Shown: positions 4,612 through 57,639 of the stretch, in pieces
How positions within the stretch are numbered: position 1 is the stretch's first letter
Layout: each line of letters starts with the position of its first letter
Origin: Syntrophorhabdaceae bacterium
GTDB taxonomy: Bacteria > Desulfobacterota > Syntrophorhabdia > Syntrophorhabdales > Syntrophorhabdaceae
Direction: 5' to 3'
Assembly (NCBI GenBank): GCA_963666485.2
Contig: CAXXUO010000009.1
Location: 352,001 to 416,000 of the forward strand
DNA length: 64,000 nucleotides
Position numbers and translations under genes: made by a program
Notes under the pieces: generated by a model
What the model saw: the letters and a program-made list of their open reading frames with translations, nothing else
The model's database searches: none
What the model was told of the DNA's origin: nothing

Positions 4612-5322
4612 TCATCTTCCGTCTTTCCGCACTATCCTGACAAGAGCGAATGTGTCAGTCCAATTCAGGCGCAACACGTAATTCTGTCCCGGACCATATT
4701 TTCCGGGCTCCGGTGCATTTCTCACAAGGCGCTGCAACTCGGGAATGTCGTGGAAGGTGCCTAACAATTCACAGCGTACCCGGTCCAGCATACTCCTGGC
4801 ATCAATGAAGGCAACCAATTTTTGAATATAAGACATGCGGACATTCTTTGATTCGATGAGGAAATTGCATTTACTGTCAACGCCAAGAGATACATCGCGG
4901 GGAAACCAGGCGGGTTTCACTTCTATGGCCCGGGGAAATCCCGGCACGATCTCAAGCCGTCCCCTCGCAAGAATACCTCCGGCGAACGGTAAAAAATCCG
5001 AATCACCAAAACTGATATTCCAGTTGTCCATGAATGTTTTGTTTGCATGTACTCTAAGTTTCGAACCTTGTTCAATGAGGTACAGATCTTGCTGGGCCAT
5101 GGGAAACATATCTATGTAGCCTTTGCCCTTTTTAATCCCGTCTTTTTCGGTTATTTTGTAAATATACCGGGAGTAAGGCCTCGTCGGTTCGGTTTCGTTC
5201 GCGAGGCTCTGCATTTCCGATCTCGTCGGAGCGGGGGGTTCCCGGGTTAGCGCCCCGGTACCGGCACAACCGGCGAGTAATATCCCTGACACAGCAATGG
5301 CGAAAAAGAATCGTAGTTTCAT
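4612..5322 (-). CDS. lipoprotein, last gene of T4SS-like operon
   Basis: MKLRFFFAIAVSGILLAG-C lipobox; RBS GGAG; 13 bp after the DotG-like gene. Confidence 0.75.
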   Translation of the reverse strand: MKLRFFFAIAVSGILLAGCAGTGALTREPPAPTRSEMQSLANETEPTRPYSRYIYKITEKDGIKKGKGYIDMFPMAQQDLYLIEQGSKLRVHANKTFMDNWNISFGDSDFLPFAGGILARGRLEIVPGFPRAIEVKPAWFPRDVSLGVDSKCNFLIESKNVRMSYIQKLVAFIDARSMLDRVRCELLGTFHDIPELQRLVRNAPEPGKYGPGQNYVLRLNWTDTFALVRIVRKDGR

Positions 5323-5335
5323 GTGATATCTCCGG

Positions 5336-6496
5336 TTATGGCATAAAGTAGATGAGCACGGGCACACCTTTTTCCATGATCAGAGTTGGTGTCTTTCTTG
5401 CTGAATTCTCCACTTTTTTCGACATTCCCTGGAACATGGCATCCCCGGACGCAAGACCGGCTTCCCTCAAACGATTGTCGTCTTTCGTCTGACCCGTGAC
5501 CGTTGTGCCTGATGTCACTTCTATCGTTGTCGTATCTTTTCTCAGAGCATTCAAGAAAGATGACATTCCCGACAATACACTGCTCGCCACAGTGCCGGCT
5601 ATATCATCATGCCGTATGGTGGAAATAATGCCATCTGATTGATCTATGGACGCAACGTATCCCTTCATAGGGTAATGAGCGTTTTCGGGATTAAGGACCC
5701 CGGAAATTTCGACGTGGAACCTGTTGTCCGTAAAATTAGGGCTTGCCTTCCCTACAATTTTCCAGCCTTTAAGCGGTATCTCGGTGCCCGTTGCAACGAA
5801 TATTGCTTTTGCATCCGACGAGGTGAATGTCCGGTCGATTACGGCTCGGTACGGTCGGTAAAATTGCACCTTCAGCCCCTGTCCGGTATAAGCGGGGCTT
5901 CTTTCCGTTCCGGGCACCTCTTTTTCATTTGGAGCGGATTGTGCCGCGGTATTCACAACCGCGGATGAGCCATGGCTCCCAACGAATCCTCCCGATATCT
6001 TTTGAAAATACATATGTTCCCATGCTTTTTTCCGTGTCTGTTCGTTATCGGTGCTGCTGAGCGAGCCGATCTGTGAATCCATCCCCTCATTGTAGATATT
6101 GGACGTGGTCTTGCCCTTTTTTGCGAAAGACAGTGGGTCACGCTCAGGGACGATCATGCCCGCAAGATCGACGTCCTCTTTTCTCTTTTTCGAGGGCCCC
6201 ACCCTTCCGATATATCCGCCCCTTTCGCTTGCCTTGAGCATCTGCTGTTCCTTCTTGATGGCATCGCCGATCGTACTTTCATCCGACTTCTTCTCGTCAA
6301 CTGCGTACGGGTCCGTCTCTTTGGACCCCGCAACGCCTGCGTTCTTTCTGGCAGCGGTCTTTTTATTTATATCGAGCTGCGACATTTTCATTTTCTTAGA
6401 TCTGTCCATAAGAACCCCTATAGCAAGGGATATGAAGAATGCGGCCGCAATCACGGCAATGGTTATCAATATGGCGGGTTTTGGGAATCTTCTCAT
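5336..6496 (-). CDS. VirB10/TrbI family protein, DotG/IcmE-like C-terminal domain
   Basis: N-terminal TM, low-complexity linker, then AVIDRTFTS..PLKGWKIVG..SSFLNAL..TPTLIMEKGVPVLIYF, resembling the DotG/TraO C-terminal domain. Confidence 0.7.
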   Translation of the reverse strand: MRRFPKPAILITIAVIAAAFFISLAIGVLMDRSKKMKMSQLDINKKTAARKNAGVAGSKETDPYAVDEKKSDESTIGDAIKKEQQMLKASERGGYIGRVGPSKKRKEDVDLAGMIVPERDPLSFAKKGKTTSNIYNEGMDSQIGSLSSTDNEQTRKKAWEHMYFQKISGGFVGSHGSSAVVNTAAQSAPNEKEVPGTERSPAYTGQGLKVQFYRPYRAVIDRTFTSSDAKAIFVATGTEIPLKGWKIVGKASPNFTDNRFHVEISGVLNPENAHYPMKGYVASIDQSDGIISTIRHDDIAGTVASSVLSGMSSFLNALRKDTTTIEVTSGTTVTGQTKDDNRLREAGLASGDAMFQGMSKKVENSARKTPTLIMEKGVPVLIYFMP

Positions 6497-7077
6497 ATGC
6501 CGGACTCCCTCCAGATCGGTTTGATTATGTATCGGGAACCCGAGAAAAGGATCGCATTACCGGCTTCGATTTTGGCGACATCAATTGCGTCCTGTTTGTT
6601 ATTGAAGAAAACCGATATGTGCGTGTCTTCCCCTGGCTCTACGGCAAATACAATGTCCCCGAGATCAACAGGTTCTTTTTCATGAAGGCAATAAACGGCC
6701 CTGAGGTTATGGTACGTCTGAAGATACTTATATTCATTCGGCATTATCTCGTTCCATACGCCCCTCGCCTGGGCAAGCCTCTCATTGTCAAAAACAAATG
6801 CGATCACCGAGTCTCCGCCATGCGGTGAAATTACCGGGATCCTTTCCGGCACTTCAAATCGCGCCCTGATATTTTCAGTAAGCGGGTCTTCCGAGGGTAA
6901 TGCCCTTATACCAACTGACAAGGTGTTGATCGCGCGTAGGAATTCGCCGACAGCGTCCATCGTCATCCCCGAGGACCTCTGGCCTTGCTGAGCATTGCTA
7001 AATGACGCCGGCATAAAAAAGGCGAGCACGACGATTGCCAGGAACGATCTGAAGATTGTTTTCATATTCTCTTTCAT
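6493..7077 (-). CDS. exported hypothetical protein in T4SS-like operon
   Basis: Signal peptide; ATGA overlap with the downstream gene, 2-bp gap to the upstream gene. Confidence 0.75.
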   Translation of the reverse strand: MKENMKTIFRSFLAIVVLAFFMPASFSNAQQGQRSSGMTMDAVGEFLRAINTLSVGIRALPSEDPLTENIRARFEVPERIPVISPHGGDSVIAFVFDNERLAQARGVWNEIMPNEYKYLQTYHNLRAVYCLHEKEPVDLGDIVFAVEPGEDTHISVFFNNKQDAIDVAKIEAGNAILFSGSRYIIKPIWRESGI

Positions 7078-7079
7078 CC

Positions 7080-9815
7080 TTATGATAAATAGCCGTCTGA
7101 ATCTATTTTCCTCATCACGGTATTGATATCTATGGTCCTCCCGATGCTCCCTTCCGGGAACATATCGGCAAGGGCCTCGATGGCCACAGCCTGCGCGCGC
7201 CTTGAAGATATGCCGCGATCCTTCAGGGTCAGTGCAATGTTTTCCCTTAAGTACCGCTCATCCTTGTGCGTGGTGTAGCGCCATCGGCTGCCTGGCGTCT
7301 GAACATTGATAAGAACGCCTTTCCCGAGGTCTTCATTGAGCGCAAGGATCTCTGCATATTTACCCGGATGGAACTTGAGGGATAGGAGGAGCTCACGGTC
7401 CTCATTTTTAAGGCCTAATATTTTGACTATATTATCTATTCCTTCAACCGTCGGGTTGTCCGGCGATATATGCCGCGTGAAAAATTTGTTGGCTGCGGCC
7501 GATATAAAATGCTTTCCCCTTTCAGCGATGTCGAGAATATCCTGCGTGACCAGGTATGTCGCCAACCCGAGGGTCCTTTGCTGCCGAGCATCTTTATCAA
7601 GCACATCGAGGATGGTTTCGTTATTTTTCAGATTATGGAACTCATCATAAACGAACAATTTTGGCCTGTTTTGCACTGCGAGCATCCAGTCGACAGATGC
7701 GGCGCCAAGAAAGGGGGGCATTTCACCCGGCAAATAGATTGCCTTGCGATAGGCAAAATCACGATAGAGGAGCAGCAATAACGCCAGTATTTCCCTTCTT
7801 TCACTGACAAGGCCCATGTGAATGCAAAAAATGTCTCTGTCCACCGAGAAATTGGTCACCCCGTTTAGCAACGAGGCCTGTTCGCCCTGCGCATACAGGT
7901 TAAGGACCCTCCTCATGTCTTCAGCTATCTGCCGGTCCCTTGAATTTGTGTTAATGGCAGGGTCCGACGAAAGCACCCGTATAAAGTCATTGAGCGTCGG
8001 AGTGGCAAGGCATTGCGCCGTTTCAGCGAGCTGAAAATCTTTTCTGTCCAGCGTTGAAAGGAATTTCTTTATATAGTAGTCCCGGTATTCCAGGTAGGTA
8101 TCGAATGAGGGGGCGCCCGCAAAGACCTTTTCCTGGGCCTCATTCGACATTTTGATCGTGCGCACATGGCGTGGTTCTTCCTTGAATAGCATGTCATAGG
8201 CTCTCTTGAGAGTACGTCCCAAAATGGAGAGTGTCTCTTTGGGGACCCTGCCGTCCTCGCTCAGCATAGCCGTGAACACCGCGTTTAAAGATAGTATTTT
8301 GGAACCGGTCGGTTGTTCGAACCCGACCCGCAGATCAAACATATTCACCCGTTTGTCACTGTCGCCGAATTTGACCTGTATGAAACTGCCCCCAAAATTC
8401 GAAACGACAGGTTCATACGAGGACGCTTTTGCCATATCGACAATAACAATGACTGGATCGTCGGCCATGGCACCCGTAATGATGCCGTTCATCAAAACAG
8501 ATTTGCCGCTTCCTGTCGGCCCGATCACCAATCCTGCCCACCTGTTCTGCCGGACACTGAATGGATGCAGCGCGGTTACTCCGCCATGACGATTCCTGAG
8601 CAGCATGGCAGGCCGGGACCGGTCACCCCGGTACATGCCGCGAAGCGGTACAAATTTCATAATGTCATGGCCGAAAATAATATGCGGGTCATAATTCCTC
8701 GTGGCACATCCGGGCAATGATGCCACAAACGCGTTCTCTTTCCGCATCCACTCCGCAAATATTCCCGCCCCGTCCACGGACATGGATACGGCCAGGCGGA
8801 AAGCCTGTATCTTTTCCTGCAGGGACTGAATGCTCGTGTCCCAAATGAGGCAGCTCACGAAACATTTTACGATCTTCCATCCTTCCCGGGCCCGGTCCTC
8901 AAGGAGATCGTCTATCGAAACGATCCTCTCCTTATTATCGATTGCGGCTGATGTTTTTTTCCCGCTGAAGATATTTGCCATCACACGCATCCTGGACAGG
9001 TCCTTCGCTATCGACGCGGCATCTTCACATAGTATTATCGTGTTCAGCACGAGGGGGAAATTGATGTTCTGAAGCATCCTCGACCCACATCCTGCCGGGA
9101 TCGTATTGGGAAGGGAATCCATCACCAGCGTGGCGAAAAAGTGCCGACCGTTCGTCAGATAATAGTCTTTCGCGTAGAAATCCGTGTTAAATATTCTTTT
9201 TCTCAAAGGTAACAGGCCGCCACACTCTGAAAGCGTCATAGAAGGCGCAGGATCACCGGGATTAATTATTCTCGCCAGGTTCTGCATCATCTCGGGCCCG
9301 CTTAAGCCCCGAATATCGTAGCCGAGAGGTATCAGGGTGTTCTTAAACATCGAAGCCGCCTCGTCCAGTTTTCGGTTGCGCTCCAGGAAATCACCCGAAC
9401 CCAGACACCTTTTCTTTTTACCCTCGATGGAGGCCTCGGCGCTGAGCGGCACAATGACAGTGCAATAGAGCGATGTATCGATGATCCCTCCCCGGGATTG
9501 CAGTTCGGCTACATTCTCTTTCGCCATCGAACGGGACAGGGGATCCACGTTTAATCTCGTGTATTCGTCAAGCAAACGGCCCGTGTCCTGATTCACATAC
9601 GTTGTGAACTGGACGAAAACGTTCTGCGCTGTAATATTCTTAAGCATTTCAGAGCATTTATTGACCTCGATATCCATGACCGACCTGTCTATCCCATCAG
9701 CCCCGGCCTGCATTATTTCGAAGCCATACGCCTTTTCAAAGCGTTCCAGGATCAGGTAATTATCTCCGACCATCGTGATCGGTATGCGCCGGTAAAAAGG
9801 AGATGATCTCTGCAT
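7080..9815 (-). CDS. VirB4-family ATPase, DotO/IcmB/TraU-like
   Basis: 911 aa; Walker A GPTGSGKS, Walker B RPKLFVYDEFH; PFSVRQNRW and VNMFDLRVG segments resemble IcmB/TraU. Confidence 0.85.
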   Translation of the reverse strand: MQRSSPFYRRIPITMVGDNYLILERFEKAYGFEIMQAGADGIDRSVMDIEVNKCSEMLKNITAQNVFVQFTTYVNQDTGRLLDEYTRLNVDPLSRSMAKENVAELQSRGGIIDTSLYCTVIVPLSAEASIEGKKKRCLGSGDFLERNRKLDEAASMFKNTLIPLGYDIRGLSGPEMMQNLARIINPGDPAPSMTLSECGGLLPLRKRIFNTDFYAKDYYLTNGRHFFATLVMDSLPNTIPAGCGSRMLQNINFPLVLNTIILCEDAASIAKDLSRMRVMANIFSGKKTSAAIDNKERIVSIDDLLEDRAREGWKIVKCFVSCLIWDTSIQSLQEKIQAFRLAVSMSVDGAGIFAEWMRKENAFVASLPGCATRNYDPHIIFGHDIMKFVPLRGMYRGDRSRPAMLLRNRHGGVTALHPFSVRQNRWAGLVIGPTGSGKSVLMNGIITGAMADDPVIVIVDMAKASSYEPVVSNFGGSFIQVKFGDSDKRVNMFDLRVGFEQPTGSKILSLNAVFTAMLSEDGRVPKETLSILGRTLKRAYDMLFKEEPRHVRTIKMSNEAQEKVFAGAPSFDTYLEYRDYYIKKFLSTLDRKDFQLAETAQCLATPTLNDFIRVLSSDPAINTNSRDRQIAEDMRRVLNLYAQGEQASLLNGVTNFSVDRDIFCIHMGLVSERREILALLLLLYRDFAYRKAIYLPGEMPPFLGAASVDWMLAVQNRPKLFVYDEFHNLKNNETILDVLDKDARQQRTLGLATYLVTQDILDIAERGKHFISAAANKFFTRHISPDNPTVEGIDNIVKILGLKNEDRELLLSLKFHPGKYAEILALNEDLGKGVLINVQTPGSRWRYTTHKDERYLRENIALTLKDRGISSRRAQAVAIEALADMFPEGSIGRTIDINTVMRKIDSDGYLS

Positions 9816-9834
9816 TATAATCCCGTTTTTCGGT

Positions 9835-11322
9835 CTAATCGGCAGGCATTCCGCTGTCCTCGATGAATCTCAGGACATCAGGGTCATCCGTATCGGCAGC
9901 CTGCGCCATCGCCCGTAATGCAATTAGTTTCAGTTTTTGATTTTCCAGATAAAGAAGGTAGTAATGCAATCGTGAAAGATCTTTCCATGCCTGGTCCTCG
10001 TAACCGCTATCAATAGCTGCCGGGGCAAGATTTTTCAGCCGGGTCCTGATGCCGGATGCCACCTCCAGTGATGTCCGGGCAAGGACGTAATGCTTGATTG
10101 CCAATTTCTTTCTCACCGCTGATGATTGTCTCGATGCGAGCAGAACCATGGCCCTTTTCATGCTGCCGTCATCGAAGAGGGACACCGGAGCCTTTGCCCG
10201 GGCGAAAGTCTCGTAATTGCGATAATCGCGGAGCAATCTCTGAACTTCGTTTTCTATCGAGGAATACATAGTCGTAATGGCGATCTCTTTCTGCTTTTCT
10301 GCGATCACCAGCCTGTTGACGGCATCGAGCGCGGATTGCACCTTCGACCCTATGATCCTATCGACAGATGCTGCTGTCGCCAGGGAGATCTTTTGAAGGG
10401 AGTCGGTCGATCTTGATATGTATTGCGGGACACTTTGCCCGGCCACGCCATTTACCGTCGATATGATCAATTCTATATCTTTATCTGTCAAAACCACTTT
10501 CGTATTGCCCGACACGGTCTTGCCGAGCACTGCCTTGAGGTATTCACTATTTGATGCTGTGAACTGATTTCCTATCGCATCTCCAACAGACATGTTTCCG
10601 ATGGTTCCCAGTATGCCGAATCCGTCGCGGGCATGCACTGTACACGCGCTAAGTGCTGCCCGGGTATTGCCGGTAACATCCTTCTGCCTTGCCGTAAGCG
10701 AGGACGCCACATCGATCCTGCCGGATAGCCCGGCCATGTGCATCACCAGGTTCGATGCGACCGGCAGGAAACCGGACACCATTGACCGATATTCATTCAC
10801 CTGGCCGGAATAGGTGCCAACAAGGCCCGGGGACTTGAGGAAAACCTGGTAATTTTTGAGGACCGTGGACGTATCATTCCTGTCGAATCCTTTCCGCCTT
10901 AATTCGTTCTGGAGGGTAGTCATAACCGAATTGTTGAGGCTGCCTGTAAAACTGGCAAGGCTCATATCGCCGTTTACGATGCCGGTCTGGGACTTTAGTC
11001 CTTCGTTAACAGCACCGCCAATCATGGATGAAAAATCATTTATGCCCGAAAGATCGCCGGTACCGGCAAAATTGCCGGGCTTATACGAGATGCTCAGCTT
11101 TTGTGACAGGTTGGCTTTTAACTCGCCTGACATAAAGTTTTTTACAAGATTATTGAGGAGAGCCGAAAACTGTGCATAGTTCGTCACCATAATGATAGGT
11201 GAGCATTTAATTGCACATTCCGCCCGGCGGCTGAACAACCCGTAGGAAATAAAAAAAATCACCAGGCCGAAGAATGTCAGAATGCCGATTACCAGAGATT
11301 TTTTTACCCGGAGCCTGTTCAT
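9835..11322 (-). CDS. exported helical protein, paralog 1 (VirB5/IcmX-like candidate)
   Basis: N-terminal hydrophobic segment; C-terminal motif APAAIDSGYEDQAWKDLSRLHYY shared with two neighbours. Confidence 0.65.
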   Translation of the reverse strand: MNRLRVKKSLVIGILTFFGLVIFFISYGLFSRRAECAIKCSPIIMVTNYAQFSALLNNLVKNFMSGELKANLSQKLSISYKPGNFAGTGDLSGINDFSSMIGGAVNEGLKSQTGIVNGDMSLASFTGSLNNSVMTTLQNELRRKGFDRNDTSTVLKNYQVFLKSPGLVGTYSGQVNEYRSMVSGFLPVASNLVMHMAGLSGRIDVASSLTARQKDVTGNTRAALSACTVHARDGFGILGTIGNMSVGDAIGNQFTASNSEYLKAVLGKTVSGNTKVVLTDKDIELIISTVNGVAGQSVPQYISRSTDSLQKISLATAASVDRIIGSKVQSALDAVNRLVIAEKQKEIAITTMYSSIENEVQRLLRDYRNYETFARAKAPVSLFDDGSMKRAMVLLASRQSSAVRKKLAIKHYVLARTSLEVASGIRTRLKNLAPAAIDSGYEDQAWKDLSRLHYYLLYLENQKLKLIALRAMAQAADTDDPDVLRFIEDSGMPAD

Positions 11323-11325
11323 CGT

Positions 11326-12683: not shown

Positions 12684-12719
12684 GATTTTCCCCTCCGCAC
12701 TAAATAAATAGCATCAGCC

Positions 12720-13811
12720 TTATTCATTCATGAAACGGGTAAGATCGTTCGAAACCCTTCGCGCATCCAGTTCGTCCACGGCTCCCGAAATAACGAGACT
12801 CTTCAGGCTCTGGTTAAGCGTCCATCCCACCGCTCTACTTCTCTGTTCGTCGCGGAGCCGATCATATTGGCCTGCAAGAATAAGCTCGCGTGTATTTAAT
12901 TGCTGTACGTCCAGGTATTCCGTCGCGAGGAGCAGTTCACCGGGTTTTGAGCTCGATCTTGCGGCGGGTACGAGAACCTGCACCATGATGGCGAGGAGCA
13001 CGTCAGTGAGTTCCTGGATGACCCATGACTGTTTTTCGATGGGGAACATGGATGCTATGCGCGAAGGCACCTGGGTGGCCATCAGCGTGTGGATGGTCGT
13101 GAATACAATATGACCTGTCTTGGCGGCCTGGATTGCGGCGAGGGACGTCTCGGGGTCCCTTACCTCTCCCACAAGGATAAGGTCCGGCCGCTGGCGCATC
13201 GCGGCCCGAAGCGCCTTTTCGAAGGACAACGTCGTCGTACCGACCTCGCGCTCTATTATGTTGCCCAACCCGTCCGGTATATCATACTCGATCGGATCCT
13301 CGATCGTGACGCAATTGAGGGCCCTTGATCGAAGAAGAAATGCAATTATCGACGCAAGGGTTGTTGATTTTCCGCTCCCGGTCGGCCCGGCTATGAATAT
13401 GATGCCTCCTGCCGAACTATCGAGGATGAGCTTCACAAGCTTGTCCGGGATGCCAAGTTTCGCGGGTTCCGGTTCTACGGACCTCAGGCGCCGCATAACG
13501 ATCGCGACCCCTTTCTTTGACAGGCAAATGTTCACGCGAAAACGGAACGCTCTCTTTTCTCGTGCGCTCCCTGTATGCTTTGTATACGAGAGATCTTTTT
13601 CTTCCCTGTCATACAGCTGCGACCGGGCACCCGGGATCTTCAATATACGTTCTATCGCGTTGTCCAGTTCATAGCCCTCAGGAGGCCGCATACAGGCCTT
13701 GGTCATCCGCCCGTGTATTCTCAGGAAAGCGGGGCTTTCGGACTGTATATATATGTCGGAAGCGTTTTCCCTGATGGCCTCGTCAATTATCTCATCGAAG
13801 AAATTTTCCAT
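12720..13811 (-). CDS. PilT-family secretion ATPase, DotB/TraJ-like
   Basis: GPTGSGKST, TIEDPIEY, RQRPDLILVGEVRD, TGHIVFTTIHT; located inside the T4SS cluster. Confidence 0.85.
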   Translation of the reverse strand: MENFFDEIIDEAIRENASDIYIQSESPAFLRIHGRMTKACMRPPEGYELDNAIERILKIPGARSQLYDREEKDLSYTKHTGSAREKRAFRFRVNICLSKKGVAIVMRRLRSVEPEPAKLGIPDKLVKLILDSSAGGIIFIAGPTGSGKSTTLASIIAFLLRSRALNCVTIEDPIEYDIPDGLGNIIEREVGTTTLSFEKALRAAMRQRPDLILVGEVRDPETSLAAIQAAKTGHIVFTTIHTLMATQVPSRIASMFPIEKQSWVIQELTDVLLAIMVQVLVPAARSSSKPGELLLATEYLDVQQLNTRELILAGQYDRLRDEQRSRAVGWTLNQSLKSLVISGAVDELDARRVSNDLTRFMNE

Positions 13812-13829
13812 AATTACAGTGCGCTTTAC

Positions 13830-14153
13830 CTACCTGCAGCGCAGCGAATCCGTACCGACAAGATATGTCAGGTATCTTCTCAAAATACTTGCACGGCAAT
13901 AGCCTCGCTGTTTTATCTCCTCCTTTCTTTTTACCTGCGCAAAAATAACGAGGACGACCGAGATTGACACACCGGAAATGCCGACAAAGATTCCCAACAT
14001 GTGCGATATATAGGAACAAAGCCCTGAAAGGCCATTCCCGAGCATTGCCGGGCAGATCGAGATGATGAGGTCCTCCATGGTCAAGTTCAGCCTCGGGACC
14101 AGGATGGAACCGTTGATACCCTGGTAGTTATGCCTCTTCCCGGAACCTATCAT
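13830..14153 (-). CDS. small membrane protein (VirB3/IcmT-like candidate)
   Basis: ATGA overlap with the upstream pilin-like gene; hydrophobic core followed by basic tail QRGYCRASILRR. Confidence 0.5.
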   Translation of the reverse strand: MIGSGKRHNYQGINGSILVPRLNLTMEDLIISICPAMLGNGLSGLCSYISHMLGIFVGISGVSISVVLVIFAQVKRKEEIKQRGYCRASILRRYLTYLVGTDSLRCR

Positions 14154-14536
14154 CCTGCCGCACTCTTCATCGTTGCCTTGACAATCCCCAGAATAAAGGA
14201 AAGAGACACGAGGCATCCCCCGAATGCCACTTTCTTCCAGGCGCCCTGGGCGCCCTGCGGGTTGTTGTCCCTGTTTGCCATGGAAATGAAACCCCAGACA
14301 ATAAGGCCTGTACCAGCGCAAAAAGATATTGCCAGCAGTCCGTTCATCAGCATTGTGGACAAGCTTGTCAGAAATGACTCGGCGGTATTCGATCCTTCAC
14401 CCCATGTGACGCTGAACGAATCAGCTCCTCCTGTCCGTGAGGTCAGACAGAAAAACAGCAGCGATACGGGCAAAATACGGCTGAACAGGGGACATGCCCG
14501 CATCACTTTCTTAACCATGCCGAACTTCTCAATCAT
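14150..14536 (-). CDS. pilin-like membrane protein (IcmD/TraR or VirB2-like)
   Basis: RBS AAAGGAG; signal peptide, then two TM helices joined by RDNNPQG loop. Confidence 0.65.
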   Translation of the reverse strand: MIEKFGMVKKVMRACPLFSRILPVSLLFFCLTSRTGGADSFSVTWGEGSNTAESFLTSLSTMLMNGLLAISFCAGTGLIVWGFISMANRDNNPQGAQGAWKKVAFGGCLVSLSFILGIVKATMKSAAG

Positions 14537-15014
14537 CCGTGTTTCTCCTTTCATATTGTGTGATATCTTCAAACAATGCTCTTTCCTTTTCCGATTGAAA
14601 ATAGATCTCCCCGATCTTAAGTTTCAGGCCGCCGTATATGTATCGTTCAACACTTATCTTGAGATACGATATGAGATAGCCCACAAGTGTGAGGCTCATA
14701 ACAAGTTGAATAATAATAAGAATTCCCACACCGTGGCCCCCTGAGCAGACCCGCGATATTATGTTGTTGGTTCCGGCACCAAAAGCTATGAGAAGCCCGA
14801 ACAGGCCTGCCAGTTTCAGCCACGACTTTACCTTGTTCTGACGGGACATCAATCCTGCGCATTCATCGATACTAAACTCATGCGCCCTGCCGCCCGCAAT
14901 TTCGAGGATGAGCATTTCAGCGTGTTCACCTGTACGCGCGCAGGCAATGACTTTCTTTTGTACGGGGAAAGGTATTTTATCGTCATATTTGCCCGGCGAA
15001 TATCTGATCAACAT
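14529..15014 (-). CDS. hypothetical membrane protein
   Basis: Two hydrophobic segments; tightly packed in the operon. Confidence 0.6.
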   Translation of the reverse strand: MLIRYSPGKYDDKIPFPVQKKVIACARTGEHAEMLILEIAGGRAHEFSIDECAGLMSRQNKVKSWLKLAGLFGLLIAFGAGTNNIISRVCSGGHGVGILIIIQLVMSLTLVGYLISYLKISVERYIYGGLKLKIGEIYFQSEKERALFEDITQYERRNTDD

Positions 15015-15017
15015 CTC

Positions 15018-15656
15018 TTAGTCTATCCGGATCGGCTGCCGTCCAAACTTCTTGTAAAATGACAGGGCGTCGTCGCATGTTCCCTTGAACGCTTTGCCAA
15101 TAACGGCCCATCTCCCGCCTTCACCGTAGGGCGCGATCGTGAGAAATACATCGTCCGGTTTTTTTGTATTGCTGAGAAAGAGAAAGGCCTCGCTCTCCGT
15201 AAAAAAGGACTCGATCAGAAAGTAACAGAAGTTTGCCCTGTCTTTCTTCAGCCAGTCGCCCCCGGCGTCGTCGCTGACAAACTGCGGAGGGGCCACGATC
15301 TTCCAGGTAAGCCCCGGGGCCGAATACATGCTTCCGTCACCGCTTATCTTTGCGGGATTGTATACAAGTCGAACCTGGGCGGGCATGATCGCACCGCCTT
15401 TTATCAATTCAAGATACAGAAGCTGATCGCGGTATTTTCGGACAAAATCCCGCAGCATCTCATCCATTTCCGCCCTGCACAGGGCCATGCCCTCCCGCCT
15501 GCCCTCCTGCCTGCCCTCGTCGCGGGCCGCAAGGACCGATTCCTTTTCGATGGCGTCCGACGATATCTGGCGGATCGCAGGAGAACATCCCCACGATGTC
15601 ATAAGGATCACGATCACTAAGATAACTGTGGCTAGAAGATGACCGATATTTTTCAT
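15018..15656 (-). CDS. lipoprotein, DotC/TraI-like
   Basis: Lipobox SWG-C; helical segment followed by GAIMPAQV..SGDG..TWKIVAPPQFVS, resembling the DotC core. Confidence 0.55.
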   Translation of the reverse strand: MKNIGHLLATVILVIVILMTSWGCSPAIRQISSDAIEKESVLAARDEGRQEGRREGMALCRAEMDEMLRDFVRKYRDQLLYLELIKGGAIMPAQVRLVYNPAKISGDGSMYSAPGLTWKIVAPPQFVSDDAGGDWLKKDRANFCYFLIESFFTESEAFLFLSNTKKPDDVFLTIAPYGEGGRWAVIGKAFKGTCDDALSFYKKFGRQPIRID

Positions 15657-15663
15657 GAATACC

Positions 15664-15930
15664 TCATTTGGTCACATTGTCTCTCGCGTGCCTGCTTTCA
15701 TTTCTGCCCGATCTCTGCTCATACTGATATGAAAAATCGGAGGAAAACGTTTTTACGAAGGCGATCTGCCGCGCCAGAACATTTATGACTTCCGACGATG
15801 ATACCGAAAGAGGCGGTACAACCTGCCCTTCTTTTTGCCCGGCCCACAAAGCATCCGGGGTGACCAGGATCAATGCGGTCAGAAAAACATGAGCGAAACA
15901 AACTCTATTTGTATGAAAAAATTTTCCCAT
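15664..15930 (-). CDS. small exported hypothetical protein
   Basis: 88 aa, signal-peptide-like ALWA; fills the gap between operon genes. Confidence 0.45.
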   Translation of the reverse strand: MGKFFHTNRVCFAHVFLTALILVTPDALWAGQKEGQVVPPLSVSSSEVINVLARQIAFVKTFSSDFSYQYEQRSGRNESRHARDNVTK

Positions 15931-16765
15931 CCGCTATCCTCCGTACCGTAATTTCATGCCGGCGTGAGCCGATCACGCTTGTCCCGCTCCCCAGATCTAT
16001 CCAGAACTCGGCATTGCCGACAGGACTTACCTTGCCGGCGATCATAAAGACGTACATATCGGGCTTCGTCAGCTTCATCATGCGCAGGAACGGGCGTGAA
16101 TCAAGCGTGATCAGCGAAGGTGACCGGCCTTCGAGAAGAATATCTTCCGCCGAGCCCTTTTCGGGTAGACGCCCGGTGGTGATCACGCGGACCATTGCGT
16201 CCGTCGCTGACGCAAGATCATCAGCGCCATGCCGTTTTACATTGACGGTAAGGTCGGCTTCCCCCGACGCTGCGTCTTCTACCAGGAGATAATGATGCGG
16301 AAGGGAACCGCCGTCTTTCTTTTCAAACACGATCAGATTTGTTGTTTTGAACTCCTTTATGGGAAAAATGACAAGGGAGTTATCTTTTATATCGATACTG
16401 AATTTTTCCCGGGCCCCGATTGCGACATCATCGCCGGAAAAGGGGAAAGGCAGGTTTAAAACGGTTCCGTACCCGTATGCAAGACGCAATCTTGGTACCA
16501 GTCCAGCGACCTCTTGCACGTCAATTATTTTCGTCCGCGCTAATTCCCTGTCTTTTTCCATGATCGGTTTCAGGCGTCTCACCTTATCCTTCATTTCCAT
16601 TACGTCCTTTTCCGACAGATCGAACGGCGGGACGATAATAGGGTCTTCCGGAAGGTGTCGTTGCTGCTGCTGTTTCTCCGGCTCGGGTGGCTTATCCGGC
16701 GCGGCATCAGCCGGCAGCTGGCTCAGAAAAACGGACAATGTAAAGGCCAAAAGGGTTTTCCACAC
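15905..16765 (-). CDS. outer-membrane core protein, DotH/IcmK (VirB9 analogue)-like
   Basis: RBS AAAGGAG; signal peptide; VPRLRLAYGYGTVL..GAREKFSI..NSLVIFP..TNLIV..DLTVNV resembles the IcmK/TraN beta domain. Confidence 0.65.
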   Translation of the reverse strand: MWKTLLAFTLSVFLSQLPADAAPDKPPEPEKQQQQRHLPEDPIIVPPFDLSEKDVMEMKDKVRRLKPIMEKDRELARTKIIDVQEVAGLVPRLRLAYGYGTVLNLPFPFSGDDVAIGAREKFSIDIKDNSLVIFPIKEFKTTNLIVFEKKDGGSLPHHYLLVEDAASGEADLTVNVKRHGADDLASATDAMVRVITTGRLPEKGSAEDILLEGRSPSLITLDSRPFLRMMKLTKPDMYVFMIAGKVSPVGNAEFWIDLGSGTSVIGSRRHEITVRRIADGKIFSYK

Positions 16766-17390
16766 TGCGCACTCCTTTATACAGCTTTATTTCATACATC
16801 TTGGTCTTGATATCGGCGTTGGCCGCTTCCTCGCCAACGACACGTACCGCGTTTAACCGTACCGCTACGAGAATGACGGCCTGTTTGCCGTTCATCTTGG
16901 CATCCTTAAGATTGTGCCATTCGGCTGTCACGACCAGTTTCTGGTCTGCCAGTGACTTGAGGTAATTGTCACGGTAAGGTTCATAAAATGCCTTGAAAGA
17001 TGCCGGATCGAAATGGCGCGACATACGGGTCATCCTGCCGGCAAGATCATCTTTCGATTTCACTTCAACATAGGTCCATGCGAGAATATCTTTGATAGCA
17101 TCTTTGCAGAAGATCTCAAGCTCCGGCCAGTATATTTTGTCCGGGTCGTCAACACGGATCAGCGACGGGCGGCCCGTTGCATCCATGAATACGATCTTAT
17201 CCTTCCCCTTGCCCACCGCAACGATCACGATCGATGCAGCCACGATCATCATGGATAATGCCAGCATCGCGCAAGGCAGTATGATCAGGGCGGTCGACGA
17301 AAATTTGAGACCTTTGAAGATCCCTATTTCAATGGCGAGCGCTTCGCTGTTGCTTTTGGCTTGTGTGACGCTTTTTTCTTCTTTCACCAC
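16707..17390 (-). CDS. VirB8-fold protein, DotI/IcmL-like
   Basis: Single TM, FMDATGR, HFDPASFKAF..LKSLADQKLVVTA, C-terminal NPFGLYIVRF; start set at GTG 17390 after AAAGGTG. Confidence 0.75.
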   Translation of the reverse strand: MVKEEKSVTQAKSNSEALAIEIGIFKGLKFSSTALIILPCAMLALSMMIVAASIVIVAVGKGKDKIVFMDATGRPSLIRVDDPDKIYWPELEIFCKDAIKDILAWTYVEVKSKDDLAGRMTRMSRHFDPASFKAFYEPYRDNYLKSLADQKLVVTAEWHNLKDAKMNGKQAVILVAVRLNAVRVVGEEAANADIKTKMYEIKLYKGVRSVENPFGLYIVRFSEPAAG

Positions 17391-17447
17391 ATGGTCACCT
17401 TTTTCGCTATATGTTAAATAGCAGCGTTCAAAAGAAAGGGGTTCCAC

Positions 17448-17711
17448 ATGACCGAAACGATCTTAAAATTCTTGAATAACGCCCAATCGACCGTTTCACC
17501 CGTTATACCCGTAATAGGAGTCTTTCTCATAATACGGGGTCTCATCCGGCTGGCGCATGGCAACGAGGCGGCAAAGGGCGGCAGCGGGGGCGGCAAGCTC
17601 ATTATCATCGGGTCCTGCCTGACGTGTTATGAAACGATCTCATCGGTCGTTATCAGTACCCTGCAGAGCTGCGGCCTTGATGTAGGCAATGTGATCAGGG
17701 TCAGCTGGTAA
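17448..17711 (+). CDS. small two-TM protein, IcmC/TraQ-like
   Basis: RBS AAGGGG; IGVFLIIRGLIRL..GGSGGGKLIIIG resembles TraQ/IcmC; opposite strand to the rest of the cluster. Confidence 0.55.
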   Translation: MTETILKFLNNAQSTVSPVIPVIGVFLIIRGLIRLAHGNEAAKGGSGGGKLIIIGSCLTCYETISSVVISTLQSCGLDVGNVIRVSW

Positions 17712-17768
17712 TGTAAGCTTCACCCGCGGTTTTGGATGACGGCCCTGTCAATCATGAGACGGCCGGCC

Positions 17769-19445
17769 TTACCTTTTGACATATTTGATAAGCCTCATTT
17801 CGCTGACGTTCCCTTTTGGTTGGACAAACCTGGTCTTGAAGCGCCTTATAACGTCCCCGGCGAATATATAACCTTCGCCTGTTGCAAGTTCTGCCAGGTC
17901 TCGCATTTCGATCCGGCTGCCCTTCTGAAAGGCATATGTCCCGTCCCAGTTGCCGAGATTTTCCGTTAACCTGCCATCGCTGCGGATGTTCGGCATCATA
18001 AAGAAGGATTCGCCCGCCCTTTCCCCCAGGAACCTGGCTGTATCCGTATCTTCAATCTTCATGACAATCTTATAGTTCGTATTGCCTATCAATCGCTTCG
18101 CATCCGTTTCAGAAGCTTTGAACAGGGACGCCAGTTCCTGGACCGAGATGATGACCCCGAAACCAAGAGACCTTCCCTGCGCAAGAACCGTGTCAAAACC
18201 TTCAACCGCATACGACCCATATTCATCGGCGATGAGCGTGAAAGGGACGTCCGGCCGGCGCCTTTTCACGTCACGGCGGATCCTTTCATAATCGCCTTCC
18301 ACTTCTGTCCCCAGCGCGGTTGTGAGGGCGATCTTAAAAGCATTGAGGGTGAGCCTCCCCAACGCCTGAAGGGTTGACAGTGAATATGACAATGACGGCA
18401 GCAGGACAATGAGTATCCGGCTGTTCGAGACCGCGTCGACCATGTCTATCTCGGGAGCATCGGTATCGAATATCCGATTGAATGTACCGGCAAGAAGGTC
18501 AAGGGGCGCTCCCCATTGCTGCACGAAAAACCCGTACTGACGCAACGCTTCGGCCGCAGCCGGTGATATTCTCCCCCCTCCAGCCGCGTTGCGGTACTCT
18601 TGCCAACCCGGAAGTTCGCCGAGCAATGCCCTGAGCCGGGCTTTCACCGGGGTCCCGTTATCGTATAATGGATACCTGTCGTCGGCTTCCAGGGCGATCA
18701 CGGAGTCGAACGAAAGGGAACGGCGGACTTCTGACGGAGTAAGTACGTAATCGCCGAACACGTCCGGATTGTCCCGCCTGTATACCAACTGAGCAAGCAC
18801 CGCCTTCATGAGTATCTTTCCGCGTTCCTGCCAGTAGATCTGGTCACCTTGAGCCTGTTTCAAAAATCCCGCCATGATCTCAGCGAGAAAATCAGCATCG
18901 CCATGGGTCATGAAGTTGAATGTATGTGACTGTGTCGGATTGAGGAAATTGAGGACGAGCAGATCCTCAAGCCGGTCGCAGTCTTCCACTATTTCGTACA
19001 GTACTGCATACGTATCGGTCACATCTGATTTTCCATCGATGAAACAAAATCCCCCTCCCAGCATCATGATGGACTCCGCCACGCTTCGAATTGCCGTCGT
19101 TTTGCCCGATCCGGTCGTACCTATGAGCATTCCGTGGCGGGTTATCTCGGAAACCGGCAGTAAGACGGGTATTCCGCACTCGTCATCTCCAAGAGAAATT
19201 GCGGGATCTTCGCGTATGCGCATAAAAACCGGTCCGGGAGAATTGTCCGAGGCCATGAGCTGAATGATCGCACCCGCTAAAAATACGCACAGGGCGAAAA
19301 AGCAACTGAAATAAGCTGCTGCCACGGTGAACACCGTCATAACGAACGGGTTGACCCAGCGGATCATGAGCCAGGTGCGGGGGCGCAGCTTTGAGGCGGG
19401 TGTGATCCGTGCGCGTTCGGCCCTGTCGTTGATGGATCGTGACAT
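17769..19445 (-). CDS. type IV coupling protein, DotL/IcmO/TrbC-like
   Basis: HGMLIGTTGSGKT, GFCFIDGK, EDLLVLNF, RILIVLLPSL..LG..LGTEVEGDY, ADEYGSYAVEGF..AQGRSLGF are DotL-type motifs; start at ATG 19445. Confidence 0.85.
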   Translation of the reverse strand: MSRSINDRAERARITPASKLRPRTWLMIRWVNPFVMTVFTVAAAYFSCFFALCVFLAGAIIQLMASDNSPGPVFMRIREDPAISLGDDECGIPVLLPVSEITRHGMLIGTTGSGKTTAIRSVAESIMMLGGGFCFIDGKSDVTDTYAVLYEIVEDCDRLEDLLVLNFLNPTQSHTFNFMTHGDADFLAEIMAGFLKQAQGDQIYWQERGKILMKAVLAQLVYRRDNPDVFGDYVLTPSEVRRSLSFDSVIALEADDRYPLYDNGTPVKARLRALLGELPGWQEYRNAAGGGRISPAAAEALRQYGFFVQQWGAPLDLLAGTFNRIFDTDAPEIDMVDAVSNSRILIVLLPSLSYSLSTLQALGRLTLNAFKIALTTALGTEVEGDYERIRRDVKRRRPDVPFTLIADEYGSYAVEGFDTVLAQGRSLGFGVIISVQELASLFKASETDAKRLIGNTNYKIVMKIEDTDTARFLGERAGESFFMMPNIRSDGRLTENLGNWDGTYAFQKGSRIEMRDLAELATGEGYIFAGDVIRRFKTRFVQPKGNVSEMRLIKYVKR

Positions 19446-19543
19446 TGTAAGAGAAGAATAGCGCCCGGTATGGCTTTGAGGCAAAATATGAGAATGGCAT
19501 ATTGTGGCTTTTTACTCTTGTTTGTGGTTAAAAGGTATCAAAT

Positions 19544-23141: not shown

Positions 23142-23189
23142 CACCAAGGCTTTATTGCCTCCCCCAATCCAGAAACAAAGGCAAAGACA

Positions 23190-23451: not shown

Positions 23452-23483
23452 GCCTTTAGCCTTTCGCCTTTCGCCTTTCGCCT
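23452..23483. repeat. heptamer microsatellite (GCCTTTM)n
   Basis: gcctttagcctttcgcctttcgcctttcgcct. Confidence 0.85.
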
Positions 23484-57626: not shown

Positions 57627-57639
57627 AAGGCGGCGGGGT

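What the first reader, a model, noticed from the sequence alone, without database searches (positions are those of the whole stretch)
4612..19445. Compact, highly divergent Dot/Icm (type IVB)-like secretion cluster with no mobility genes
Seen: about 17 tightly packed genes, several with overlapping or near-touching stop/start codons, including three ATPases. Known: the coupling protein has DotL-type motifs (RILIVLLPSL, LGTEVEGDY, DEYGSYAVEGF), the VirB4 has the IcmB/TraU-type YDEFH, and the third ATPase is PilT-like, as DotB is, rather than VirB11-like. DotI-, DotH-, DotC- and DotG-like proteins are recognisable by recalled motifs but are short. No relaxase, integrase, primase, tRNA or att repeat is visible. 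The cluster abuts a PAS gene on one side and shares a ~145 bp divergent gap with tupA on the other. No DotA/TraY or IcmS/W-like gene is evident. Inference: a domesticated, minimal type IVB machine in a probably free-living anaerobe, used for cell-cell protein or chromosomal DNA transfer rather than for moving a self-transmissible element.
Basis: partly seen in the sequence, partly recalled or inferred. Interest (0 to 1): 0.88.

Follow-up and report, generated by a model that had tools for sequence, protein, structure and literature searches.

The report
Chromosomal relaxase-less type IVB-like secretion system
A 17-gene secretion machine distantly related to the Legionella Dot/Icm and IncI plasmid transfer systems sits, without any DNA-mobilising genes, at one fixed chromosomal site in most species of an uncultured anaerobic deltaproteobacterial genus, and looks like a plasmid transfer apparatus that the host has kept for its own use.

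Summary
Window 4612-19484 carries 17 conserved genes. They include a DotL/IcmO-type coupling protein (only PDB hit, E 2e-61), a TraU/IcmB-type VirB4 with the YDEFH Walker B (19-21% identity to references) and a PilT/DotB-type ATPase. There is also a DotI/VirB8-like protein, a VirB9/DotH-fold protein and a VirB10/DotG-fold protein. The rest are small envelope proteins with no known family.

No relaxase from six Pfam families was found in the 99%-complete genome. The window has no tRNA, integrase or bounding repeats.

- The coupling protein occurs in 19 of 19 congeners, mostly beside proS.
- Its tree matches the ProS tree.
- All 17 genes have dN/dS of 0-0.47.

So long vertical retention under selection is supported. 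There are four limits on that reading:
- One congener (G003) has an empty site. It carries a divergent copy of the same 17-gene set on a plasmid-like 92-kb contig.
- One congener has lost the distal half of the cluster.
- VirB4 was found in only 13 of 19 congeners.
- DotA/TraY and most MPF-I-specific proteins were not detected.

My reading is a new, deep-branching variant of the MPF-I/type IVB kind, domesticated from a plasmid. Its substrate is unknown.

The parts
17769..19484 (-). Type IV coupling protein, DotL/IcmO/TrbC type. The start is probably ATG at 19445 (558 aa). It lacks the long C-terminal tail seen in its relatives.
   Evidence: PF10412 and PF12696. NF041447 TrbC E 2e-60, below the curated cut-off. 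The only PDB hit is DotL 6sz9_A, E 2e-61, residues 104-569. Orthologues align from residue 13-14. Relatives outside the genus are 663-773 aa and G003's is 705 aa.
17448..17711 (+). 87-aa protein with two membrane helices, on the strand opposite to the rest; possibly TraQ/TraR-like.
   Evidence: Conserved in 13 loci at 34-86% identity. dN/dS 0-0.17. Two hydrophobic segments. Weak profile hit to IncI1 TraR, E 0.0016 in a small database.
16707..17447 (-). DotI/IcmL (VirB8-family)-like bitopic inner-membrane protein; the start is probably near 17390.
   Evidence: PF11393 E 4e-4, below the cut-off. 12 of 12 orthologues hit PF11393 at E <= 0.05, best 1.4e-6, and one also hits VirB8 at 1.3e-5. One N-terminal membrane helix. 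No PDB sequence hit.
15905..16765 (-). VirB9/DotH-fold outer-membrane core protein (286 aa).
   Evidence: AF2 model with pLDDT 71.6 and two beta domains. Foldseek top hits: Dot/Icm 7muc chains at 4.5e-11, then TrwF/VirB9, Xanthomonas VirB9, F-type core and CagX. hhalign against DotH/TraN references gave probability 34%, E 4e-4.
15664..15930 (-). 88-aa secreted or membrane protein of unknown role.
   Evidence: Conserved across the genus. dN/dS 0.29-0.45. N-terminal hydrophobic segment.
15018..15656 (-). 212-aa probable lipoprotein; possible DotC-like or VirB7-analogue core component.
   Evidence: Invariant Cys24 after a signal-like segment. Weak profile hit to the DotC-position ORF of the Piscirickettsia dot/icm locus, E 0.0014. 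No Pfam or PDB hit.
14529..15014 (-). 161-aa membrane protein of unknown role.
   Evidence: Conserved. dN/dS 0.13-0.19. Hydrophobic segment.
14150..14572 (-). VirB2/TrbC-type pilin-like protein: a variable leader followed by a nearly invariant mature part of about 85 aa with two hydrophobic helices.
   Evidence: Alignment. Membrane-helix scan. 6 of 10 orthologues weakly hit PF18895 T4SS_pilin (best E 0.054) and 7 of 10 hit DUF6750 (best 0.01), a family annotated in an MPF-I locus.
13830..14153 (-). 107-aa small membrane protein in the VirB3 position, between the pilin-like gene and the ATPases.
   Evidence: Orthologues are 106-108 aa and align from residue 57-64 of the long ORF. dN/dS 0.07-0.18. 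The VirB3 role is inferred from position and topology only.
12720..13811 (-). PilT/DotB/TraJ-type hexameric ATPase.
   Evidence: PF00437 E 3.7e-48. TIGR01420 252.7 bits, DotB 134.5, TraJ 132.5, VirB11 51.9. PDB: PilT 1.7e-49, DotB 2.1e-38.
11928..12683 (-). 251-aa exported protein of unknown role; by eye its N- and C-terminal stretches resemble those of the 495-aa protein.
   Evidence: Conserved. dN/dS 0.09-0.11. The resemblance was read from the translations and not tested.
11326..11931 (-). 201-aa exported protein of unknown role.
   Evidence: Conserved. dN/dS 0.17-0.28.
9835..11322 (-). 495-aa exported protein restricted to this lineage.
   Evidence: Only 12 clusters among 5.8 billion proteins, all >= 53% identical, none with Pfam. 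ESM Atlas lead 'TraW-like', score 0.81, not confirmed by hhalign.
7080..9815 (-). VirB4-family ATPase of the TraU/IcmB type.
   Evidence: PF19044. Genus profile against a TraU-like protein 6.5e-17, IncI1 TraU 1.1e-11, IcmB 7.7e-11. Shared YDEFH Walker B; 19-21% identity. The best plasmid hit is the TraU-position ORF of an MPF-I locus.
6493..7077 (-). 194-aa exported protein of unknown role.
   Evidence: Conserved. dN/dS 0.11-0.44.
5336..6496 (-). VirB10/DotG-fold bitopic protein (386 aa).
   Evidence: N-terminal membrane helix. AF2 model with low overall confidence (pLDDT 44) but a C-terminal barrel plus two helices. Of the 14 listed Foldseek hits at E < 0.01, 13 are named T4SS VirB10/DotG/CagY/ComB10 or T4SS core-complex entries, best 1.1e-5; the next hit is at 0.084. 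Weak profile hit to DotG, E 0.04.
4612..5367 (-). 251-aa lipoprotein (LAGC lipobox) of unknown role; the last gene of the cluster.
   Evidence: Invariant Cys34. Lipobox. dN/dS 0.22-0.47.

Best explanation
This is a working, relaxase-less type IV secretion system from a deep branch related to the MPF-I / type IVB (IncI, Dot/Icm) class. It descends from the mating apparatus of a plasmid-like element, became fixed in the chromosome next to proS before the genus diversified, and has since been kept by purifying selection.

Inferred anatomy:
- Outer-membrane core: lipoproteins plus a VirB9/DotH-fold protein and a VirB10/DotG-fold protein.
- Inner-membrane platform: a DotI/VirB8-like protein, small membrane proteins and the TraU/IcmB-type VirB4.
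- A pilin-like subunit.
- A PilT/DotB-type ATPase.
- A DotL-type coupling protein that recruits the substrate.

The genome has no recognisable relaxase, and the coupling protein has lost the C-terminal tail present in its plasmid-borne relatives. I therefore commit to contact-dependent export of one or more proteins, and not self-transfer of DNA, as the most likely job. The homologies, the inheritance pattern and the selection are shown by calls. The assembly, the activity and the protein substrate are inferred.
For: Homology:
- T4CP to DotL, E 2e-61.
- VirB4 profile to TraU/IcmB, 6.5e-17 to 7.7e-11, with a shared YDEFH motif.
- PilT/DotB-type ATPase.
- DotI family in 12 of 12 orthologues.
- VirB9/DotH and VirB10/DotG folds.
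- All non-ATPase products carry signal, lipobox or membrane segments.

Inheritance:
- T4CP in 19 of 19 congeners and in 0 of 5 genomes of other genera of the family.
- VirB4 in 0 of 76 other genomes of the class, and in the phylum sample of 401 genomes only in G000 and G003.
- T4CP lies 0.2-6 kb from proS on the same contig in 16 congeners.
- T4CP and ProS trees share three clades across 14 taxa.

Selection: dN/dS 0-0.47 for all 17 genes in four species pairs, against 0.08-0.12 for flanking tupA.

No relaxase in the own genome (99.1% complete) for PF03432, PF08751, PF03389, PF07514, PF01076 and PF02486. No tRNA or bounding repeats.

Plasmid origin:
- G003 has the same genes in the same order at 25-57% identity on a 92-kb contig.
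- That contig carries DnaA-like, DnaB, ParA/ParB, SLT, topoisomerase and secretin genes.
- It shares no DNA with G000 except the T4CP gene.
Against: - No substrate, effector or immunity gene was identified.
- No expression data: no RNA run is listed as holding the region.
- VirB4 was not found in 6 of 19 congeners. G012, 100% complete, has clearly lost the distal half. G002's cluster is fragmented, which may reflect pseudogenes or a poor assembly (78% complete).
- No polytopic VirB6/DotA-type channel protein was detected. TIGR04346 gave 0 hits, but its control rang nowhere.
- Relaxases of PF03432 occur in 8 of 19 congeners on other contigs, so mobilisation in trans is not excluded there.
- An unrecognised relaxase family cannot be excluded.
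- The two structure models rest on shallow alignments (9-12 sequences), and one has pLDDT 44.
Confidence: 0.55

Rival explanations
1. It is still a conjugation apparatus that acts in trans. It would mobilise small plasmids or integrated elements that carry their own relaxase, or chromosomal DNA through a relaxase of an unrecognised family.
For: - The machine retains a coupling protein, the component that links relaxosomes to the channel.
- PF03432 relaxases are present in 8 of 19 congeners, 7 over the cut-off, on other contigs.
- The G003 relative sits on a plasmid-like element.
- T4CP hits in plasmids are mostly in conjugative records, 3374 of 4072.
Against: - No relaxase of six families in the own 99%-complete genome.
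- 11 of 19 congeners have no PF03432 hit.
- The chromosomal T4CPs lack the C-terminal tail of the plasmid-borne relatives.
- No Pfam relaxase was found on the G003 contig either.
Confidence: 0.25
2. It is a slowly decaying remnant of an integrated plasmid or ICE and has no present function.
For: - The distal half is deleted in G012.
- The cluster is fragmented in G002.
- The site is empty in G003.
- VirB4 was found in only 13 of 19 congeners.
- Toxin-antitoxin and Fic-like genes are inserted after the PilT gene in several species.
Against: - All 17 genes are intact in the window and in at least eight other species.
- dN/dS is 0.04-0.47 at dS up to and above 1, similar to the flanking tupA.
- Gene order is unchanged at 25-57% identity between the two lineages.
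Confidence: 0.12
3. It is a DNA uptake or DNA release system, analogous to Helicobacter ComB or the gonococcal T4SS.
For: Relaxase-less T4SS have been recruited for DNA import (passages read in PMC3548315). The cluster has no linked relaxase.
Against: From recall, not from a call: ComB lacks a coupling protein, and the gonococcal system needs a relaxase. Here a coupling protein is conserved and no relaxase exists. There is no evidence for competence genes beside the cluster.
Confidence: 0.06

Closest known systems
IncI (R64-type) conjugation system, MPF-I class
   Same: - TrbC/DotL-type coupling protein.
- TraU-type VirB4 with a YDE(F/L)H Walker B.
- PilT-like ATPase (TraJ).
- TraM/DotI-like protein directly followed by a VirB9-fold protein, the traM-traN order.
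- VirB10-fold protein (TraO).
- Small pilin-like membrane proteins (TraQ/TraR).
Sources; passages of PMC4027160.
   Different: - 19-21% identity in VirB4 and at most 34% in T4CP.
- The T4CP falls in a sister clade.
- No NikB relaxase.
- No TraY/DotA, TraW, TraP, TraV, TraX, TrbA or TrbB detected.
- The VirB10-like gene lies at the far end of the cluster.
- The system is chromosomal and fixed in a genus.
[quoted passage not shown]
   Same: - DotL is the only solved structure that the T4CP matches.
- DotB-like ATPase.
- The best structural matches of two core proteins are Dot/Icm core and dome chains.
- It works without a relaxase.
   Different: - About 17 genes against about 27 components (count from the abstract of bioRxiv 10.1101/312009, listing).
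- No IcmS/IcmW, DotM/DotN or DotA detected.
- The T4CP lacks the C-terminal adaptor-binding tail.
- No known effectors.
- The host is an uncultured anaerobic deltaproteobacterial genus with no evidence of a eukaryotic host.
Plasmid-like 92-kb element of congener G003, and the T4CP clade that includes the Deferribacter desulfuricans pDF308 megaplasmid
   Same: - G003 has the same 17 genes in the same order at 25-57% identity.
- The T4CPs form one clade with 100% local support, apart from classical DotL/TrbC.
   Different: - The G003 copy sits with DnaA-like, DnaB, ParAB, SLT, two topoisomerases, helicases, a secretin and a type I-E CRISPR-Cas locus.
- Its T4CP has a C-terminal tail of about 140 aa.
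- The window's copy has none of these.

Membership tests
MPF-I / type IVB (IncI, Dot/Icm) | DotL/TrbC-type coupling protein | tested here: met
   PDB hit to DotL only, E 2e-61. NF041447 E 2e-60 but 205 bits against a curated cut-off of 800. The tree puts it in a sister clade of the references.
MPF-I / type IVB (IncI, Dot/Icm) | TraU/IcmB-type distant VirB4 | tested here: met
   Genus profile hits TraU-like, IncI1 TraU and IcmB at 6.5e-17 to 7.7e-11. YDEFH motif shared. Identity is only 19-21%, against 25-36% among the references. No phylogeny with the other MPF classes was made.
MPF-I / type IVB (IncI, Dot/Icm) | PilT-like ATPase (TraJ/DotB) in place of VirB11 | tested here: met
   TIGR01420 252.7 bits, DotB 134.5, TraJ 132.5, VirB11 51.9. 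PDB: PilT 1.7e-49, DotB 2.1e-38.
MPF-I / type IVB (IncI, Dot/Icm) | DotI/TraM protein | tested here: inconclusive
   12 of 12 orthologues hit PF11393 at E <= 0.05, best 1.4e-6. The window's own protein scores 20.3 bits, below the 27.7 cut-off. No hit with my profile or hhalign to three references.
MPF-I / type IVB (IncI, Dot/Icm) | DotH/TraN and DotG/TraO core proteins | tested here: inconclusive
   Fold matches to Dot/Icm chains rank first, but VirB9/VirB10 of other classes follow closely. These folds are common to diderm T4SS (PMC4027160 passages). Sequence-level support is weak: hhalign probability 34%; HMM E 0.04.
MPF-I / type IVB (IncI, Dot/Icm) | DotA/TraY polytopic membrane protein | tested here: not met
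   TIGR04346 gave 0 hits in the genome, but the control rang in no genome. No cluster product has more than three hydrophobic segments. My profiles do not hit the TraY/DotA ORFs of four reference loci.
MPF-I / type IVB (IncI, Dot/Icm) | Other class-specific proteins (TraI/DotC, TraH/DotD, TraK/IcmT, TraP, TraQ/R, TraV, TraW, TraX) | tested here: inconclusive
   Only weak leads: the 212-aa lipoprotein to the DotC-position ORF at E 0.0014; the 87-aa ORF to TraR at 0.0016; pilin-like to DUF6750/T4SS_pilin at 0.01-0.05; a TraW-like Atlas lead at 0.81. hhalign found none at 20% probability or more. The reference alignments were tiny, 1-3 sequences.
MPF-I / type IVB (IncI, Dot/Icm) | Passing the CONJScan/TXSScan MacSyFinder model | not testable with these tools
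Self-transmissible element (ICE or conjugative plasmid) | Linked relaxase | tested here: not met
   0 hits in the whole genome for PF03432, PF08751, PF03389, PF07514, PF01076 and PF02486. Controls rang for each. MOBC and MOBB profiles and novel relaxases were not tested.
Self-transmissible element (ICE or conjugative plasmid) | Integrase, tRNA target or att repeats at the borders | tested here: not met
   No tRNA in 64 kb. No bounding direct repeat of 16 nt or more other than chance-level pairs. Flanking ORFs are a thioesterase, a pseudouridine synthase, a kinase-like protein, a PAS protein, the tungstate ABC genes and ProS.

The most novel reading that the evidence does not exclude
The cluster represents a ninth, undescribed mating-pair-formation lineage that branches beside MPF-I. 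It has its own set of about ten lineage-specific envelope proteins. It exists both as a plasmid transfer machine (G003, and a contig of a MAG labelled Syntrophomonadaceae) and as a host-domesticated, relaxase-less injector. The anaerobic genus would use the injector to deliver proteins into neighbouring cells, for example competitors or metabolic partners.
Probability: 0.25. Interest if true: 0.8.

Novelty: new variant of a known kind. Interest (0 to 1): 0.55.

Why it matters
- Type IVB/MPF-I systems are known mainly from IncI-like plasmids and from intracellular pathogens. In 2012 the class was reported only from Proteobacteria (passages of PMC3548315).
- This locus offers a natural before-and-after pair within one genus: a plasmid-borne form in G003, and a chromosomal form that has lost its replication, partition, topoisomerase and secretin neighbours and the coupling-protein tail.
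- The pair makes the question 'what changes when a conjugation machine is recruited by its host' directly testable.
- It also gives a compact 17-gene version of a machine whose best-studied relatives have many more parts.
- Relaxase-less T4SS are common, however, so the finding is of solid but not exceptional interest until a substrate is known.

Tried and rejected
- The search for related loci with the T4CP alignment in genome contigs and with the VirB4 alignment in metagenome contigs. The only useful result was one congener titled 'Deltaproteobacteria bacterium UBA5205'. The context of the 44-50% relatives could therefore not be fetched.
- The nearest named relative is a 33.7-kb contig of a MAG labelled Syntrophomonadaceae. 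It holds T4CP as gene 2 and VirB4 as gene 27. I could not read it.
- Profile searches of the PDB found nothing for the 286-aa, 386-aa, DotI-like, pilin-like and 212-aa families.
- hhalign of 14 families against 20 small MPF-I reference sets gave only three pairs at 20% probability or more.
- ESM Atlas: a TraW-like lead (0.81) for the 495-aa protein and a SPOR lead (0.75) for the 212-aa lipoprotein. Both score under 0.9, so they are leads only.
- Complex prediction of the VirB9-like protein with the 212-aa lipoprotein returned no verdict, score 0.00. This is not evidence either way.
- The promoter and terminator scan gave no more sites than in shuffles: 18 against 15.3, and 19 against 16.7.
- Paper searches: 'UBA5205' gave 0 papers. 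'type IVB secretion / Deltaproteobacteria / DotL' listed 15 of 66 papers, and no listed paper holds 'Deltaproteobacteria'. 'type IV secretion / syntrophic / Syntrophorhabdus / conjugal transfer' listed 5 unrelated papers. I found no description of this system in print in those searches.
- The R64 accession was not in the plasmid collection. An IncI-gamma/K1 plasmid was used as the reference in its place.
- The organism's class could not be named, so 'free-living' remains unverified.

Full report
**What is there**

The window is G000:C9:352001-416000 of a 3.77-Mb genome in 10 contigs, 99.1% complete. Between a PAS-domain gene (3090-4556, +) and a tungstate/molybdate-type ABC operon (from 19544, +) followed by proS (23611-25326) lie 17 conserved genes. 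Sixteen run on the minus strand from about 19445/19484 down to 4612. One 87-aa gene (17448-17711) runs on the plus strand between the coupling-protein gene and the rest.

Three gene calls needed correcting:
- The 64-aa minus-strand ORF overlapping the 87-aa gene has few orthologues and is probably spurious.
- The 163-aa ORF at 13830-14321 starts in orthologues at about 14153, giving 107 aa.
- The DotI-like gene probably starts near 17390.

GC content of the cluster (0.49-0.54) is slightly below that of the tup-proS side (0.55-0.59).

**The recognisable parts**

*Coupling protein (571 aa by the longest ORF).*
- It has PF10412 and PF12696.
- It matches NCBIfam TrbC (NF041447) at E 2e-60, far below that model's curated cut-off.
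- In the PDB it matches only DotL/IcmO (6sz9_A, E 2e-61), over residues 104-569 against DotL 115-588.
- It ends where DotL's adaptor-binding tail begins.

*VirB4 (911 aa).*
- It has PF19044. Its best NCBIfam hit is F-type TraC at E 1.5e-23.
- Against 72,556 plasmids it hits only 96 records at about 22% identity. The best is the TraU-position ORF of an MPF-I region in a Pseudomonas plasmid.
- A profile of the genus family hits that protein (6.5e-17), IncI1 TraU (1.1e-11) and Piscirickettsia IcmB (7.7e-11).
- All share the YDE(F/L)H Walker B.
- Identity to these references is 19-21%, whereas they are 25-36% identical to each other.

*Third ATPase.* It is PilT-family: TIGR01420 252.7 bits, DotB 134.5, TraJ 132.5, VirB11 51.9. 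PDB: PilT 1.7e-49, DotB 2.1e-38.

*DotI-like protein.* It is sub-threshold for PF11393, but 12 of 12 orthologues hit it, best 1.4e-6.

**The parts recognisable only by fold**

I built alignments of genus orthologues and predicted two structures.
- *The 286-aa protein* (pLDDT 71.6, two beta domains). Foldseek hits, in order: Dot/Icm core chains (7muc, 4.5e-11), R388 TrwF/VirB9, Xanthomonas VirB9, F-type core and CagX.
- *The 386-aa protein* (pLDDT 44 overall, with a better C-terminal barrel and two long helices). It hits the Dot/Icm dome (9ngw, 1.1e-5), TrwE/VirB10, Xanthomonas VirB10, CagY, DotG and ComB10. The first hit that is not a T4SS entry is at 0.084.

These are VirB9/DotH-type and VirB10/DotG-type core proteins. 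Such folds are shared by all diderm T4SS (passages of PMC4027160), so they do not prove MPF-I membership.

**The remaining proteins**

The other eleven products all have signal, lipobox or membrane segments.
- The 140-aa protein has a variable leader and a nearly invariant two-helix mature part. It has weak hits to T4SS_pilin and DUF6750. I read it as a pilin-like subunit.
- The 212-aa lipoprotein has one weak hit to a DotC-position ORF (E 0.0014).
- The 495-aa protein has only 12 clusters of relatives among 5.8 billion proteins, all >= 53% identical.
- DotA/TraY was not found, but the control for that model rang nowhere.

**Mobility genes**

The own genome gave no hit for six relaxase Pfam families, each of which rang in control genomes. 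The window has no tRNA, and no repeats bound the cluster. The flanking genes are ordinary.

In the genus, PF03432 relaxases occur in 8 of 19 other genomes (7 over the cut-off). They are always on contigs other than the one with the T4SS.

**Distribution and inheritance**

- The coupling protein is present in 19 of 19 genomes of the same genus at 57-87% identity. It is in 0 of 5 genomes of other genera of the family. Four of 21 non-genus genomes have only weak hits at 25-29% identity.
- VirB4 is in 13 of 19 congeners and in 0 of 76 other genomes of the class. In a 401-genome sample of the phylum it is only in G000 and G003.
- Among 5.8 billion proteins, VirB4 has 28 clusters at >= 44% identity; the next best is 23%.
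- Gene order is conserved in all loci fetched.
- proS lies 0.2-6 kb from the coupling-protein gene on the same contig in 16 congeners. The tup operon lies between them in some and is absent in others.
- Quick ML trees of 14 taxa share three clades between T4CP and ProS: {window, G002, G011}, {G004, G005, G008, G009, G016} and {G006, G010, G017, G018}. Five congeners were left out of these trees because I lacked one of the two genes for them.
- Nei-Gojobori dN/dS in four species pairs is 0-0.47 for all 17 genes: T4CP 0.05-0.09, VirB4 0.06-0.11, PilT-like 0.04-0.14. Flanking tupA gives 0.08-0.12. dS exceeds 1 between clades.

**Results that cut against simple domestication**

*G003.*
- Its ProS is 93% identical to the window's and groups with the window's clade, but its T4CP is only 57% identical and sits on a long outlying branch.
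- Its chromosomal site is empty. The kinase-like gene pair, a PAS histidine kinase, the tup genes and proS are contiguous.
- Its T4SS has the same genes in the same order at 25-57% identity.
- That T4SS lies on a 92-kb contig that shares no DNA of 300 bp or more with G000 except the T4CP gene.
- The contig encodes a DnaA-like ATPase, DnaB, ParA/ParB, further ParB-like proteins, SLT, two topoisomerases, RecD2-like and DEAD helicases, a secretin just after the last T4SS gene, and a type I-E CRISPR-Cas set.
- I found no Pfam relaxase on it.

*Other congeners.*
- G012 (100% complete) keeps the T4CP-to-PilT half but has lost everything after a truncated 251-aa gene.
- In G002, 8 of 17 genes are fragmentary and VirB4 is in four pieces. 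That genome is only 78% complete, so assembly error is possible.
- In G005 the T4SS contig is seen to end inside the cluster. In G014, G015 and G019 the T4CP match lies 0.6-7 kb from a contig end. Absence of VirB4 in these four is therefore ambiguous.

*Insertions.* Several species carry toxin-antitoxin, Fic-like or TPR genes between the PilT-like gene and the next gene.

**Wider relatives**

An exhaustive search with the T4CP found 2442 relatives:
- one cluster at 81% identity, the genus itself;
- about 13 clusters at 40-50% identity;
- the rest at 38% or below.

In a FastTree of 71 sequences, the window's clade, those 40-50% relatives and the Deferribacter pDF308 megaplasmid T4CP form a 22-row clade. 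It is separated with 100% local support from a 49-row clade that holds IncI1 TrbC, Piscirickettsia DotL and Xanthomonas IcmO-like. FastTree joins long branches readily, and no outgroup was used.

The closest relatives outside the main genus lineage are G003 and P0038. P0038 lies on the same 33.7-kb contig as a 44%-identical VirB4, in a MAG labelled Syntrophomonadaceae.

The out-of-genus relatives are 663-773 aa and G003's T4CP is 705 aa. The chromosomal genus copies are about 558-607 aa. The chromosomal lineage has therefore lost a C-terminal tail of about 100-200 aa. In DotL this region binds the IcmSW/LvgA adaptors (abstracts of PMC7251119 and PMC7280309, listing).

**Interpretation**

The simplest history is as follows:
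1. A plasmid-type mating apparatus of a lineage beside MPF-I entered the chromosome next to proS before the genus radiated.
2. It lost its maintenance and DNA-processing neighbours and the T4CP tail.
3. It has been kept under purifying selection in most species, with occasional loss.

That a complete envelope-spanning machine is still made is inferred from intact genes and from selection. No expression data exist here. The substrate is unknown. I favour proteins, because there is no relaxase and the T4CP is remodelled. Mobilisation in trans remains a serious rival.

**Comparison and novelty**

Relaxase-less T4SS are frequent, and their authors predicted novel exaptations in free-living bacteria (PMC3548315, passages read). 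This is a new variant of a known kind. It has MPF-I-like ATPases and DotI, generic core folds, about ten lineage-specific proteins and no DotA/TraY. The paper searches found no description of it.

The organism is known to me only as a member of a genus, one member of which is titled 'Deltaproteobacteria bacterium UBA5205'. Its free-living lifestyle was not checked.

Noticed in passing
window 23156-23464: A 44-nt unit repeated about seven times head to tail in the spacer between the tup ABC ATPase gene and proS.
   Followed up: no
window 51295-55932 (-): A 1545-aa protein with RHS repeats and an SpvB-like N-terminus, a polymorphic-toxin-type architecture. It lies 32 kb from the T4SS. No link to the T4SS was tested.
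   Followed up: no
window 56154-63755: A type II secretion / type IV pilus-like cluster: MshE/GspE-type ATPase, GspF, PilN-like and T2SS-M-like genes.
   Followed up: no
window 38037-38693 (+): A stand-alone SLT lytic transglycosylase. The G003 plasmid-like contig also has one (L121:9683-10354). Whether the chromosomal one serves the T4SS is unknown.
   Followed up: no
L120:1365-9746 (G003 contig C9): A complete type I-E CRISPR-Cas gene set (Cas3, Cse1, Cse2, Cas7, Cas5, Cas6e, Cas1) on the same plasmid-like contig as the divergent T4SS.
   Followed up: no
L019:10479-11603, L020:9840-10964, L021:9857-10981 and neighbours: In several congeners the spot between the PilT-like gene and the next T4SS gene holds inserted genes. 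By eye, without a Pfam test, these are a 374-aa Fic-like protein, PIN/VapC-type toxin with Phd-type antitoxin pairs, and TPR proteins. In G003 the same spot holds a topoisomerase, which was confirmed by Pfam.
   Followed up: partly
L012:5241-17900 (G003 contig C9): A 13-kb block separates the T4CP gene from the rest of the T4SS in G003. Its roles were read by eye from ORF starts only: aldehyde-oxidoreductase-like subunits, a phenylacetate-CoA-ligase-like gene, and a PAS sensor with a response regulator.
   Followed up: no
window 42893-46363 (-): A 1156-aa TPR + CHAT (caspase-like) protein.
   Followed up: no
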